Position numbers: made by a program. Shown here one piece after another: positions 18,001 through 21,000 of a stretch of 64,000 nucleotides of DNA (the stretch's first letter is position 1; every line of letters begins with the position of its first letter). The stretch comes from Carcharhinus amblyrhynchos. Its lineage: Eukaryota. The stretch is from the NCBI GenBank assembly GCA_965287045.1, contig OZ336872.1:119350001-119414000 (forward strand). Reading direction: 5' to 3'.

Positions 18001-21000
18001 TCCATCTTGGGCAGGACGGTGGAGGGAGGGTGCCTTCATTGGAAGACCCCTGCCAAAACTGGGTGCCACCCCATCACCAAGGTCCAGTGGCCTCTGGATT
18101 TCCCTCACTCCCAGTCTCCTCCTCAAGACCCTGATTGCCCTTCTCATTCCCCTCCAGGCTTGCATAATGTTCCCTGCCCTGGGACTCCTTGAACTCAGTA
18201 AAAAGTCTGACAACACCAGGTTTTAGTCCAACCGATTTATTTGATAGTAAACGCACAAGCTTTCGAGGTTTCCCTCTTCGTCAGGTGAATGGAGAGTTCT
18301 GGCCTCGGACAGGCATATAAAGCACAGACAGTTTGATCAAGAGGAGAGCCGGTGGATGTGGTCTTTCTGGATTTTTCAGAAGGCGTTTGACAAGGTACCT
18401 CACAAGAGGTTATTGCAGAAGGTCAGGGGACATGGAGTTGGGGGTAGGGTGTTAGCGTGGATAGAGGATTGGTTGTCAAATAGGAGGCAGAGAGTGGGGG
18501 TCAATGGGTGCTATTTGGATTGGTGGTTGGTGACTAGTGGGGTGCCCCAGGGGTTGGTGCTGGGGCCTCAGCTATTTACCATTTATATAGATGATCTGGA
18601 GGAGGGAACCGAGTGCAGGGTGTCGAAATTTGCTGATGACACCAAGACTGGGGGAAAGGCAAATTGTGCGGAGGGTGTGGAGAGTCTGCAGAAGGATCTA
18701 GATAGGCTGGGCGAATGGGCCAGGAAATGGCAAATGGAATTTAATGTTGGCAAGTGTGAGGTGGTCCACTTTGGTAGGAAGAATGGTAGGAAGGACTATT
18801 ACTTACGTGGCGAAAACCTGCAGCAGGCGACGGTGCAGAGGGACCTCGGGGTCCTTGTGCATGAGTCGCAAAAACCCAGCTTGCAGGTGCAGCAGGTGGT
18901 CAGGAAGGCGAATGGGATGCTGGCCTTCATAGCGAGGGGGATTGAATATAAAAGTAGGGAGGTCTTGCTGCAGCTGTATAGGGCATTGGTGAGGCCGCAG
19001 CTGGAGTACTGTGTGCAGTTTTGGGCGCCGCATCTGCGCAAGGATATTTTGGCCCTGGAGGGAGTGCAGAGGAGGTTTACTAGGCTGATACCGGAGTTGA
19101 GGGGATTGAGCTATGAGGAGAGGCTGAATAAACTAGGCTTGTACTCGTTAGAGTTTAGAAGAATGAGGGGAGATCTCATTGAGACGTATAAGATGATGAA
19201 TGGGATGGATAGGATAGAGGTGGAGAGACTCTTCCCGCTCAGAAAAGACAGTAGGACTAGGGGGCACAGCCTCAAGATAAAGGGGAGGCGGTTTAGAACG
19301 GAGTTGAGGAGGAACTTCTTCACTCAAAGGGTGGTGAATCTCTGGAATTCTCTGCCCGTTGAAGTGGTGGAGGCTGCCTCGCTAAATATTTTTAAGACGC
19401 GGGTTGATGGGTTTTTGATAAGAGAGGGGATTAAGGGTTATGGGGAGAGGGCGGGAAAGTGGAACTGAGCCACGACAGATCAGCCATGATCTTATTGAAT
19501 GGCGGGGCAGGCTCGAAGGGCTAGATGGCCTACTCCTGCTCTTATTTCTTATGTTCTTATGTTCTTATCTCTAATCTGTCTGTGCTTTATATGCTCTGTC
19601 CGAGGCCAGAACTCTCCATTCACCTGACGAAGAGGGAAACCTTGAAAGCTTGTGCGTTTACTATCAAATAAATCGGTTGGACTAAAACCTGGTGTTGTCA
19701 GACTTTTTACTGTGTTTACCCCAGTCCAACGCCAGCACATCCACATCATGACTCCTTGAACTATCAGGACCTCTGATTCCTGGACTGGAGGTGAAATTCT
19801 CCCAAGCCCCACCAGCAGCTCGATGGCAGGCATAGTAGGAGAATATGCTGGGATGTTCAAACATAGATTTGATGCTGGTGTGAATCCACAGCAAGATCTT
19901 CCCCCTATGGTAGGTTAGAAAACTCACCAGGAGACAGCATGAACCTCAGTTACACCTTGTTAATGGGATGCAGATGAAGACCTAGTTCCCTACTCCAGAT
20001 CCTTCACAATACCAGTGGGAAAAGACTCTGACATGAAACACATTTGGTACATCACTGAGGCATACAAGATGATCAGAGGGTTAGATAGGGTGGATAGTGA
20101 GAGCCTTTTTCCTCGTATGGTGACAGCTAACATGAGGGGACATAGCTTTAAATTAAGGGGTGGTAATTATAGGACGGATGTCAGAGGTAGGTTCTTTACT
20201 CAGAGGGTAGTAAGGGCGTGGAATGCCCTGCCTGCAGCAGTTGTGGACTCGCCAACTTTAAGGGCATTCAAATGGTCAGTGGATAGGCATATGGACAACA
20301 TTGGAATAGTTTAGATTAGAGGGTCATTAGATTGGTTCCACTGGTCAGCGCAACATTGAGGGCCGAAGGGCCTGTACTGCGCTGTAATGTTCTATGTTCT
20401 ATCATGGTGGGCAAATGTCAAGACTCATCTGAACAATGCCTGGGGCTGCCTCCGGACTTCAGGATGGAGTTACCCTCAACCTGCACTCTAGAACACCACA
20501 ACACTGGGTCTGGGGAGCATCTGCAGTGGACGTTCCAGATCTGGTGTCCTGGAGCAGGTCCTGTTTCCAGCCTCAGAATGTTTCTGGAAATCCATTCTCA
20601 TTCCCAGGAGGTCCATCTCTCCAGAGTGTTCCCAGAGATCGATCTTCATTTTCAGGAGGTCCACCTTCAACCTTCAATAGTGGATCAGTGATTTTGGGCA
20701 ACTTTTCGATATGGCCTTCCAGACACAATGGTGGGCTAGGCGCTTGTCCCATCACTGAATAAAGCGTAATTAATGAGGTTGGGGCCAGAAGATGTGGCAT
20801 ATTTTTCCACCGGTTATTGCTGTGGAAAACACGCCCTGTCCCTGCCTCCGCCATGGCACTCAGTCTCTGAAGTCTTCTGGAACTTTTTTTTTGTTGACTG
20901 GCTGCTCTCTAAACCACCACTTTCCACCAGTGTGAGAGGCAGATGGCCTCGCCTGCAGCCAATCAACACCCATTGAGGCGTAACTTGGCTACGGGGCAGT

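What the first reader, a model, noticed from the sequence alone, without database searches (positions are those of the whole stretch)
18183..19762. Ribozyme-capped composite retroelement: inverted Penelope pLTRs enclosing a CR1 RT fragment inside one 13-bp TSD
Seen: GACTCCTTGAACT at 18183-18195 and 19750-19762 brackets a 1554-bp unit. Its arms 18196-18331 and 19576-19712 are inverted repeats differing only by one substitution and one 1-bp indel. The right arm has an unpaired 37-nt extension (19713-19749). Between the arms lies a young 5'-truncated CR1 with no obvious TSD of its own, whose (TTCTTATG)n tail runs into the right arm after ~8 nt. Known: Penelope-like elements form inverted 5' pLTRs lacking a ~30-40-nt 3' extension and carry minimal hammerheads in their pLTRs. 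Inference: either (A) a PLE RT mobilised a chimeric CR1-pLTR transcript, i.e. a LINE fragment travelling as cargo in a non-autonomous ribozyme-bearing PLE, or (B) CR1 inserted at the tip of a pre-existing pLTR palindrome. Model A would be an unusual cross-clade transduction system. A read-through transcript would fold into a 136-bp dsRNA stem.
Basis: partly seen in the sequence, partly recalled or inferred. Interest (0 to 1): 0.85.

Follow-up and report, generated by a model that had tools for sequence, protein, structure and literature searches.

The report
Penelope inverted repeat holding a CR1 fragment
This is a short Penelope-like retrotransposon insertion made of two head-to-head copies of its ribozyme-bearing end, with a broken CR1 LINE copy sitting exactly between them; the anatomy is textbook for Penelope elements and the CR1 piece is more likely a later or captured insert than travelling cargo.

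Summary
A 13-nt exact direct repeat (18183-95 and 19750-62) brackets inverted arms 18196-18331 and 19576-19712. The arms differ by 1 substitution and 1 indel. A 37-nt one-sided extension follows (19713-49).

Each arm carries a minimal hammerhead motif. My own descriptor hits only the two arms in 64 kb and 0 of 200 shuffles. Rfam finds nothing.

This matches published Penelope-like element (PLE) insertion anatomy: an inverted pLTR, a 30-40 bp tail at one end and a variable TSD. It is explained by priming on both DNA strands from two adjacent start sites.

Between the arms lies a 5'-truncated, 3'-complete CR1 (18332-19568). Its RT reading frame is open. A second CR1 at 5931-6957 is 2% different, has no arms, and ends in the same tail to the base.

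No genome was available, so cargo versus nesting cannot be settled.
- I favour a CR1 made by its own RT entering the centre of a pre-existing PLE palindrome (about 0.5).
- One-event capture is next (about 0.25).
- A mobile composite family is last (about 0.1).

Capture of unrelated sequence between pLTRs within a TSD has already been reported in rotifers, so even the bold reading is a variant of a known kind. Interest is modest.

The parts
18183..18195 (.). Left copy of the 13-bp target-site duplication GACTCCTTGAACT
   Evidence: Exact repeat with 19750-19762 (D4). Chance recurrence 7 of 200000 draws.
18196..18331 (-). Left arm: antisense (inverted) copy of the PLE pLTR end, without the tail. 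18192-18195 and 18332-18334 are ambiguous edge bases.
   Evidence: 1 substitution and 1 indel against the right arm.
18254..18287 (-). Minimal hammerhead motif. It has the CUGACGA box, a bulged A, a 4-bp helix II with GAAA loop and an intact G10.1-C11.1 pair, the GAAA box, a palindromic GC, UU, and a 3-bp helix I.
   Evidence: Own descriptor. The feature list comes from Cervera and de la Pena 2014. No Rfam hit.
18313..18331 (+). TATAAA-like box (18316-18321) about 10 nt from the inner end of the left arm, pointing into the CR1. Its mirror is in the right arm.
   Evidence: Seen in the sequence. Bidirectionally readable TATA boxes in pLTRs are reported in rotifers. Promoter activity was not tested.
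18332..19568 (+). 5'-truncated, 3'-complete CR1-clade LINE fragment: the RT C-terminal half, the 3' UTR and the microsatellite tail.
   Evidence: RVT_1. It is 65% identical to a Mobula birostris protein, 69-71% to unnamed full-length EN+RT proteins and about 50% to bird CR1 ORF2. Protein homology reaches at least 18340.
18377..19468 (+). Uninterrupted part of the CR1 ORF2 frame (363 codons plus stop). A +1 frameshift lies just upstream, near 18372-18376.
19546..19568 (+). CR1 tail (TTCTTATG)2 TTCTTAT. It ends at the same base as the tail of the copy at 5931-6957.
19569..19575 (+). Junction bases CTCTAAT between the CR1 tail and the right arm. CTCT is unpaired filler or target. AAT may be the innermost bases of the arm.
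   Evidence: (I2).
19576..19712 (+). Right arm: sense copy of the PLE pLTR end.
   Evidence: An older relative lies at 12474-12550.
19621..19654 (+). Minimal hammerhead motif, sense on the + strand. A CpG-to-TpG change at 19643 has weakened G10.1-C11.1 to a G.U pair.
19713..19749 (+). 37-nt PLE 'tail', present at this end only. A+C make up 25 of 37 bases. Bases 19723-19730 pair with 19676-19683 in a stem that encloses the tail start.
   Evidence: the 8-bp stem is kept in the centroid. The tail peptide is conserved in an unrelated 163-aa database ORF, and similarity starts exactly at the tail end.
19750..19762 (.). Right copy of the 13-bp target-site duplication.
   Evidence: D4.
5931..6957 (+). 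Comparison copy: an independent 5'-truncated copy of the same young CR1 family, not flanked by pLTR arms.
12474..12550 (+). Comparison copy: an older, related pLTR fragment (83% over 77 nt). Its helix II has a different sequence but still pairs.

Best explanation
Step 1 (well supported). A Penelope-like element ribonucleoprotein nicked both DNA strands 13 bp apart. It then started reverse transcription of the element's 3' end on both strands. One cDNA started at the distal internal start site, so it carries the 37-nt tail. The other started at the proximal site, so it has no tail. This left a head-to-head pair of about 136-nt pLTR ends inside a 13-bp TSD. The product is a short, dead, non-autonomous PLE insertion, and each arm carries a minimal hammerhead motif.

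Step 2 (inferred, about even odds). The nearly spacerless palindrome was break-prone at its centre. A CR1 ribonucleoprotein from a family active at the same time used that site. It started at its own microsatellite tail and stopped after 1.24 kb, inserting a 5'-truncated CR1 exactly between the arms. The 1.2-kb spacer then stabilised the inverted repeat.

The locus is not itself mobile. If it is transcribed through, the arms form a 136-bp RNA duplex, which would also hide the single sense hammerhead.
For: PLE anatomy:
- The TSD is exact and unlikely by chance (7 of 200000).
- The arms are 98.5% identical, while the other listed inverted pairs in the window are 75-91%.
- Only one end carries the 37-nt AC-rich tail.
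- Published anatomy agrees: an inverted pLTR, a 30-40 bp tail at one end and a variable TSD (a 31-bp tail with 8-10 bp TSDs).
- In vitro, a PLE protein cleaves and extends both strands, and starts at two adjacent internal sites whose spacing equals the tail.
- The hammerhead descriptor hits only the two arms in 64 kb and 0 of 200 shuffles. It shows the bulged base, G10.1-C11.1 and the palindromic 15.2/16.2 listed.
- The older copy at 12474-12550 has a helix II of different sequence that still pairs.
- The tail and outer arm recur in an unrelated database ORF, with similarity starting exactly at the tail end.

Nested CR1:
- The CR1 ends at the identical tail base as the independent copy at 5931-6957. 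Older CR1 copies in the window carry 1-3 tail units.
- The CR1 3' UTR hairpin and octamer microsatellite are held to be the recognition site of the CR1 RT. This suggests the CR1 RT set this 3' end.
- That second copy has no arms.
- The ages are compatible. The arms differ at 2 of 137 positions and the two CR1 copies at 21 of 1024 (Fisher p = 1.0).
- Palindromes at inverted pLTR junctions are common in PLEs.
- Non-spaced inverted repeats are nuclease targets in mammalian cells, whereas spaced ones are not, and they appear counter-selected.
Against: - If the CR1 landed at random in the roughly 280-bp palindrome, it would hit the central 7 nt only about 2.5% of the time (my arithmetic). The centre-break rationale comes from other systems and is not shown here.
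- No allele with the palindrome but without the CR1 could be looked for.
- The CR1 has no TSD or target deletion signature that would prove a separate event.
- The equal ages of arms and CR1 fit a single event just as well.
- PLEs are reported to capture unrelated sequence between pLTRs within a TSD, so one-event capture has precedent.
- The target site is not AT-rich, unlike the preference reported for the anole element.
- Rfam finds no hammerhead, even at E up to 10.
- Helix I of the motif is only 3 bp, against the 4-5 bp described.
Confidence: 0.5

Rival explanations
1. One-event capture. During the PLE integration itself, the cDNA primed on the bottom strand reached the end of a short pLTR template and continued on a CR1 RNA. 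This could be a template jump by the PLE RT, or a CR1 ribonucleoprotein extending the free 3' end of the intermediate. After 1.24 kb the cDNA joined the short cDNA primed on the top strand. The CR1 fragment was therefore installed together with the arms, but the product is a one-off and not a mobile family.
For: - One TSD surrounds everything, and the CR1 has no TSD of its own.
- The CR1 lies in the same orientation as the tailed arm and is complete at its 3' end, as expected for a jump onto an RNA 3' end.
- Four unpaired bases (CTCT) sit at the jump point.
- The arms and the CR1 are of indistinguishable age.
- The CR1 family was active at the time, since two copies 2% apart lie within 64 kb.
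- Two frame-breaking indels sit in the first 45 nt or so next to the 5' junction. There are none in the 1024 nt shared with the second copy.
Against: - A jump by the PLE RT should start at the physical 3' end of the CR1 RNA. The end here is, to the base, the end produced by CR1's own RT in an independent copy, with no read-through or poly(A).
- Both pLTR templates would have to end at the same position. That position lies upstream of the TATA-like box, so it is unlikely to be a transcription start.
- No second example could be sought.
Confidence: 0.25
2. A chimeric CR1-pLTR transcript from a source locus, or the whole composite, is a non-autonomous element copied by a PLE RT. Other copies with the same junctions would then exist elsewhere in the genome.
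For: - pLTRs are reported to be sufficient in cis for mobilising foreign inserts in trans, for example an NRPS gene with an 8-bp TSD.
- Non-autonomous PLE derivatives are reported in green algae and proposed for vertebrate retrozymes.
- The unit ends with a proper tail and TSD.
Against: - The left arm stops within 0-7 nt of the CR1/pLTR junction. A second cDNA copied from the same chimeric RNA should have run on into the CR1 tail.
- The only other copy of this CR1 family in the window has no arms and a different truncation point.
- No second copy of either junction exists in the window.
- The two open DNA scans found 0 matches, but that collection holds only bacteria and archaea, so this says nothing.
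- The protein database appears to lack this species. The best CR1 identity was 71% among the 120 listed proteins of 637-2000 aa.
Confidence: 0.1
3. The arms are two independent insertions of a young PLE family that happen to flank a CR1, or the inverted arrangement is an assembly artefact.
For: PLE inverted and tandem structures are said to cause assembly problems. A related pLTR fragment elsewhere in the window shows the family is dispersed.
Against: - Independent insertions would each have their own TSD. Here one exact 13-bp repeat brackets the whole unit.
- Both arms end at the same internal position.
- The arms carry two real differences, one of them a CpG decay, which is not expected of a duplicated read.
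Confidence: 0.05

Closest known systems
Canonical EN+ Penelope-like element insertions (Penelope/Poseidon, Neptune and related clades) with an inverted pLTR, an optional 30-40 bp tail and a variable TSD
   Same: Head-to-head inverted pLTR copies, a tail at one end only (37 nt here against 31 bp and 30-40 bp reported), one short TSD (13 bp here against 8-10 bp reported), a minimal hammerhead motif in the pLTR, and a TATA-like box readable both ways.
   Different: No PLE RT/GIY-YIG ORF and no direct upstream pLTR. Only about 136 nt of the element end is present on each side. The arms are of equal length. The target site is not AT-rich. Family assignment by sequence was not possible because no repeat library was available.
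Rotifer (Adineta vaga) Penelope-mediated capture of an NRPS gene and of other unrelated sequences between pLTRs within a TSD (Arkhipova et al. 2013, PMC3846280; passages read)
   Same: Foreign sequence lies between pLTR copies, including an inverted one, and a single short TSD flanks the whole.
   Different: The insert here is a fragment of another retrotransposon, and its 3' end looks made by that element's own RT. There is no direct upstream pLTR. No parent copy or second copy is known, so capture is unproven.
L1 twin priming and template-switch chimeras such as U6-L1 (recalled, not read here; a paper on U6 pseudogenes appeared in the listing)
   Same: Both broken DNA ends can prime cDNA, which gives inverted segments. 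An RT can also jump to a second RNA and make a chimera inside one TSD.
   Different: In L1 twin priming the second primer anneals inside the same RNA, so the inverted part is upstream sequence and not a second copy of the 3' end. PLE priming is protein-directed at fixed internal sites.
Animal non-LTR retrozymes (tandem hammerhead-bearing repeats, proposed to be non-autonomous PLE derivatives)
   Same: A short non-coding PLE-derived sequence with a type I hammerhead motif.
   Different: Retrozymes are direct tandem repeats that can yield circular RNAs. Here the copies are inverted and separated by 1.24 kb, so no sense-sense ribozyme dimer can form in cis.

Membership tests
Penelope-like element (EN+ PLE) insertion | Terminal pseudo-LTR copies, often with an adjacent inverted 5'-truncated copy | tested here: met
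   Inverted arms 18196-18331 and 19576-19712, with 2 differences. Feature as described.
Penelope-like element (EN+ PLE) insertion | A 30-40 bp tail present at only one end of the insertion | tested here: met
   The 37-nt stretch 19713-19749 has no partner. It is conserved in an unrelated database ORF. Feature.
Penelope-like element (EN+ PLE) insertion | Short target-site duplication of variable length | tested here: met
   13-bp exact repeat. Chance 7 of 200000.
Penelope-like element (EN+ PLE) insertion | Single ORF with a telomerase-like RT and a GIY-YIG endonuclease | tested here: not met
   The only RT in the unit is CR1-type. Of 59 stop-to-stop ORFs of 90 aa or more in the window, 51 were scanned against Pfam. 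None matched an RT or GIY-YIG domain, and the only hit was ALKBH8_N. This is therefore a truncated or non-autonomous copy, not a whole element.
Penelope-like element (EN+ PLE) insertion | Sequence similarity to a curated PLE family consensus | not testable with these tools
   No repeat library (Repbase or Dfam) and no eukaryotic genome collection were open.
Minimal type I hammerhead ribozyme of metazoan PLEs | CUGANGA and GAAA boxes, a bulged base between positions 9 and 10.1, G10.1-C11.1, palindromic 15.2/16.2, and UH at the cleavage site | tested here: met
   Both arms match my descriptor, the only 2 hits in the window, with 0 of 200 shuffles giving any hit. The left copy has G10.1-C11.1 and the right copy has G.U after CpG decay. 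Feature list.
Minimal type I hammerhead ribozyme of metazoan PLEs | Helix I of 4-5 bp | tested here: not met
   Only GUG/CAC (3 bp) pair contiguously.
Minimal type I hammerhead ribozyme of metazoan PLEs | Match to a curated hammerhead covariance model | tested here: not met
   There were no Rfam matches at gathering score in the whole window. In 18100-19850 at E up to 10, the only match of any family was one weak unrelated hit. The min-HHR lacks a monomeric helix III, which may explain this.
Minimal type I hammerhead ribozyme of metazoan PLEs | Self-cleavage (as a dimer) | not testable with these tools
   This needs an in vitro assay. Reported PLE min-HHRs cleave poorly or need the PLE protein.
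CR1-clade LINE | ORF2 reverse transcriptase related to CR1 elements | tested here: met
   RVT_1 at E 3e-18. It is 65% identical to a Mobula birostris protein, 69-71% to unnamed EN+RT proteins and about 50% to many bird CR1 ORF2 proteins.
CR1-clade LINE | 3' UTR hairpin followed by an octamer microsatellite tail, with no poly(A) | tested here: met
   (TTCTTATG)2 TTCTTAT at 19546-19568, with a GATCA...TGATC inverted pair upstream. Feature.
CR1-clade LINE | AP-type endonuclease domain and ORF1 | tested here: not met
   Both are absent because the copy is 5'-truncated within the RT. Full-length relatives carry PF03372.
Non-LTR retrozyme | Direct tandem repeats each carrying a hammerhead | tested here: not met
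   The two motifs lie on opposite strands, 1.3 kb apart. No tandem copy is present.
PLE-mobilised cargo element (pLTR - foreign insert - pLTR within a TSD) | Foreign sequence between pLTR copies inside one TSD | tested here: met
   The CR1 fragment lies between the arms inside the 13-bp TSD.
PLE-mobilised cargo element (pLTR - foreign insert - pLTR within a TSD) | Evidence of co-mobilisation: a parent locus, or further copies with the same junctions and different TSDs | not testable with these tools
   No genome was available. There is no second junction copy in the window. The only open DNA collection holds prokaryotes (0 hits).

The most novel reading that the evidence does not exclude
The CR1 fragment was installed in the same event as the arms. 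A Penelope-like integration complex, after copying its short pLTR template, carried on along an RNA of an unrelated LINE clade, or handed its 3' end to a CR1 ribonucleoprotein. One TSD thus encloses a PLE-CR1 chimera. If such events recur, PLE ends would be a general vehicle for scattering fragments of other retroelements. Each product would be built as a long hairpin able to feed small-RNA pathways.
Probability: 0.3. Interest if true: 0.55.

Novelty: new member of a known kind. Interest (0 to 1): 0.3.

Why it matters
The locus is a clean natural example of the product predicted by the recent in vitro finding that a PLE protein primes on both DNA strands from two adjacent start sites. One arm has the tail, the other lacks it, and a single TSD surrounds both.

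If the CR1 was captured in the same event, that would show cross-talk between two unrelated retrotransposon machineries in a vertebrate.

If the CR1 arrived later, the locus illustrates how a break-prone palindrome is stabilised by an insertion at its centre.

Either way, the 136-bp near-perfect inverted repeat around a LINE fragment is a plausible source of double-stranded RNA against both families. None of this changes how these families are understood.

Tried and rejected
- **Rfam.** A scan of the whole window at gathering score and of 18100-19850 at E up to 10 found no hammerhead. I kept the motif call because of the structural descriptor test.
- **Core boxes alone.** CTGANGA...GAAA gives 8 matches against 6.45 expected, so the boxes alone are not significant.
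- **Single-arm fold.** A single arm does not fold better than its shuffles (z = +0.98, 167 of 200 shuffles fold at least as well). There is no evidence for a stable monomer structure.
- **Junction search.** The right junction gave 0 hits and a conserved pLTR core gave 0 hits. Both results are uninformative.
- **Paralogous empty site.** The left flank is unique. The right flank has only weak matches to older repeats. No empty site was found.
- **Other pLTR copies via spurious ORFs.** A protein database search found one hit, a 163-aa ORF from an unnamed record. It confirms the tail but diverges before the inner end of the arm. It therefore does not show whether that end is a boundary shared by the family.
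- **Literature on PLE-LINE chimeras.** I searched the terms Penelope, template switching, chimeric, retrotransposon and CR1. Forty-three papers held at least 4 of the 5 terms and 15 were listed. No listed title or abstract start concerned such chimeras, and I saw only the listing.
- **Microhomology idea.** I considered that the palindrome centre resembles the CR1 tail, which would allow microhomology priming. By eye about half of 14 positions match in T/C-rich sequence, which is too weak to use.
- **Arm ends as transcription starts.** I considered that the inner ends of the arms are transcription starts of a short pLTR RNA. I rejected this as unlikely, because the TATA-like box lies inside the arm, downstream of that end in the sense direction.
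Full report
**What is there.** GACTCCTTGAACT occurs at 18183-18195 and again at 19750-19762. Just inside lie inverted arms, 18196-18331 and 19576-19712. 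A global alignment shows they differ by one substitution and one 1-nt indel. The right arm runs on for 37 nt (19713-19749) that have no partner on the left.

A random 13-mer of this window recurs in a comparable 80-nt interval in 7 of 200000 draws. Of the 25 longest inverted pairs within 6 kb in the window (51 found), all others are 75-91% complementary, against 98% here. The structure is real and is not a chance meeting of dispersed repeats.

**The arms are ends of a Penelope-like element.** On the + strand of the right arm and the - strand of the left arm lies the following string: CAC, CUGACGA, A, GAGG, GAAA, CCU(C/U), GAAA, GC, UU, GUG. Cervera and de la Pena 2014 (PMC4209133, parts 1-2 of 4 read) list the features of the minimal hammerheads of metazoan PLEs:
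- the two catalytic boxes;
- an unpaired base between positions 9 and 10.1;
- a G10.1-C11.1 pair;
- palindromic 15.2/16.2 in place of a real helix III, so the ribozyme must work as a dimer;
- a short helix I.

They also note pairs of such motifs on opposite strands 100-700 bp apart.

A descriptor I wrote from these features hits exactly the two arms in the 64-kb window and nothing in 200 dinucleotide shuffles. Three results cut the other way:
- The boxes alone are not significant (8 matches against 6.45 expected).
- Rfam reports no hammerhead at gathering score or at E up to 10.
- Helix I is only 3 bp.

The one substitution between the arms is a CpG-to-TpG change in the right arm. It turns G10.1-C11.1 into G.U, so it arose after insertion. 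An older relative of the arm at 12474-12550 (83% over 77 nt) has a helix II of different sequence that still pairs.

**The tail, the inverted copy and the TSD are the published PLE signature.**
- Craig et al. 2021 (PMC8557442, passages) describe an inverted 5'-truncated copy, a 30-40 bp tail at one end and TSDs of variable length.
- Arkhipova et al. 2013 (PMC3846280, passages) describe an inverted pLTR, a 31-bp tail on one of the inverted pLTRs, TSDs of 8-10 bp, palindromes at the inverted junction, and a TATA box readable in both directions.
- Frangieh et al. 2024 (PMC11167929, main text read) show that a purified anole PLE protein cleaves and extends both DNA strands. It starts reverse transcription at two adjacent internal sites in an AC-rich stem-loop, and the tail equals the stretch between those sites.

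Here the tail has 25 of 37 bases A or C. Its bases 19723-19730 pair with 19676-19683 in a stem that encloses the tail start, and this stem is kept in the centroid fold. A single arm as a whole does not fold better than shuffles (z = +0.98).

A 163-aa ORF from an unnamed database record matches the antisense translation of the tail and outer arm. It is 76% identical and 31 of 45 residues identical. The similarity begins exactly at the tail end, so the tail belongs to the element and not to the target.

I conclude with high confidence that the outer structure is one PLE integration event primed on both strands. It contains no PLE ORF. Of 59 ORFs of 90 aa or more in the window, 51 were scanned against Pfam and none matched an RT or GIY-YIG domain. 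The 8 not scanned were seven that overlap the two CR1 copies and one overlapping ORF at 51186-51458.

**The insert is a young CR1.**
- 18377-19468 is an open frame of 363 codons that matches RVT_1.
- Among 2342 longer proteins with E up to 0.001, 120 were listed. The most identical are unnamed full-length EN+RT proteins (71% and 69%) and a Mobula birostris protein (65%). Many bird CR1 ORF2 proteins are about 50% identical.
- Protein similarity reaches back to at least 18340 (RGEPVDVV), probably to 18332, with a +1 frameshift near 18372-18376.
- The fragment ends in a hairpin and the tail (TTCTTATG)2 TTCTTAT at 19568. This is the CR1 hallmark described by Suh et al. 2014 (PMC4316615, passages).
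- A second copy at 5931-6957 differs by 21 substitutions and no indel over 1024 nt. The CpG-polarised changes split 3 to 4, by my reading of that list.
- That second copy has another truncation point and no pLTR arms. It ends at the very same tail base.
- Three older CR1 3' ends printed from the window carry 1-2 tail units, and two further tail-like runs found by pattern carry 2 and 3 units.

**Cargo or nested?** The window holds one instance only, and no genome of the species was available. The flanks have no paralogous empty site in the window. What remains is anatomy, and three facts weigh.

1. Both arms stop at the same internal position, within 0-7 nt. The CR1 fills exactly the space between them, with CTCT (perhaps CTCTAAT) as unpaired bases on the right and at most 2-3 ambiguous bases on the left.
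2. The CR1 3' end is the one that CR1's own RT makes.
3. The ages of the arms and the CR1 cannot be told apart (2 of 137 against 21 of 1024, Fisher p = 1.0).

Fact 1 argues against a read-through chimeric template (model A). A second cDNA from such an RNA would have continued into the CR1 tail.

Fact 2 argues against a jump by the PLE RT onto the physical end of a CR1 transcript. It does not exclude a CR1 ribonucleoprotein extending a free 3' end.

Equal arms with a palindromic junction are what PLEs commonly leave. Non-spaced inverted repeats are cut by structure-specific nucleases in mammalian cells, while spaced ones are not, and they appear counter-selected in genomes (Holkers et al. 2011, PMC3300023, passages). 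A LINE cDNA entering a break at the palindrome centre is therefore a reasonable path. LINE insertion without its own endonuclease and the 'centre-break' mechanism are recalled from memory here, not read. There is also survivorship in favour of palindromes that acquired a spacer.

Against nesting, a random hit on the central 7 of about 280 nt has odds of about 2.5% (my arithmetic). No separate insertion signature is visible. Capture of unrelated sequence between pLTRs inside a TSD is on record.

My estimates are:
- nesting, about 0.5;
- one-event capture, about 0.25;
- mobile composite family, about 0.1;
- independent insertions or an assembly artefact, about 0.05;
- the remainder unassigned.

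**How it works now.** The unit has no PLE or complete CR1 coding capacity and is almost certainly immobile. In the minimum-free-energy fold of the 1554-nt unit, all 136 left-arm bases pair with the right arm, and the arm duplex alone is -262.7 kcal/mol. A read-through transcript in either direction would therefore be a long hairpin. It would carry one sense hammerhead motif buried in the stem and no second sense copy to dimerise with, so self-cleavage is unlikely. 'Ribozyme-capped' is thus a description of ancestry and not of function. A TATAAA at 18316-18321 points from the left arm into the CR1. Whether it drives transcription is untested.

**Comparison and novelty.** The outer structure is a member of the known kind 'truncated EN+ PLE insertion with inverted pLTR and tail'. 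The PLE clade cannot be assigned without the ORF or a repeat library. The insert is an ordinary 5'-truncated CR1. It is not a retrozyme, because there are no tandem direct repeats.

The combination resembles the rotifer cases of foreign sequence between pLTRs. I found no report of a PLE-LINE chimera in one search (43 papers held at least 4 of the 5 terms, 15 were listed, and I saw only the listing). Supplements of the papers cited were not consulted and may hold further examples.

The host is probably a cartilaginous fish, judging only from the nearest named CR1 relative. I did not pursue this.

**Verdict.** The structural interpretation is right. The exciting mechanistic reading is unsupported but not excluded. 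Interest is 0.3.

Noticed in passing
window 5931-6957 (+): A second 5'-truncated copy of the same young CR1 family. It is 2.05% different and has an open frame of 308 codons (5931-6854). It ends in the identical tail and has no clean TSD.
   Followed up: yes
window 12474-12550 (+): An older pLTR-like fragment (83% to the right arm). It ends 7 nt into the 'tail' (…ACTGTGTTTAC). Its hammerhead helix II has a different sequence but still pairs, while the first catalytic box reads A instead of C3. It may be truncated there.
   Followed up: partly
window 18335-18376: Judged against protein relatives, two frame-breaking indels (about +2 near 18345 and +1 near 18372-18376) lie in the first 45 nt or so of the CR1 fragment, next to the 5' junction. 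The 1024 nt shared with the second copy have no indel, and 18377-19468 is an open frame. The clustering is unexplained. It could be error-prone synthesis at the junction, or chance.
   Followed up: partly
window 18251-19468 (+): Because the two indels cancel, a 405-codon stop-free frame runs from inside the left arm through the whole CR1 fragment. It is probably meaningless.
   Followed up: no
window 18168-18320 (+) and 19552-19914 (-): The antisense strand of the pLTR arm is free of stops across the tail and arm. The same frame is open in the unrelated database ORF P0123.
   Followed up: partly
protein P0116: A 966-aa EN+RT protein 60% identical to this CR1 is filed under a bacterium, Carnobacterium maltaromaticum, on a 3-kb contig. 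It looks like animal DNA contaminating a bacterial assembly.
   Followed up: no
window 47013-47372 (+): The only Pfam hit among the 51 other ORFs scanned is ALKBH8_N (E 6e-13). No other sign of a host gene was seen among ORFs of 90 aa or more.
   Followed up: no
whole window: The window is dense with dispersed repeats. There are 51 inverted pairs of 40 nt or more within 6 kb, mostly 75-91% alike, including a family around 5377, 7219, 9736-9923, 11723 and 13000. There are also several old CR1 3' ends (1446-1641, 37730-37813, 39776-39845, 15613-15633, 49863-49876).
   Followed up: no
window 19790-20047 vs 27327-27589 (-): The right flank of the insertion has a weak match (65% over 268 nt) to another place in the window, so the PLE may have landed next to or inside an old unidentified repeat. 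An old CR1-like piece lies at 20052-20247.
   Followed up: no
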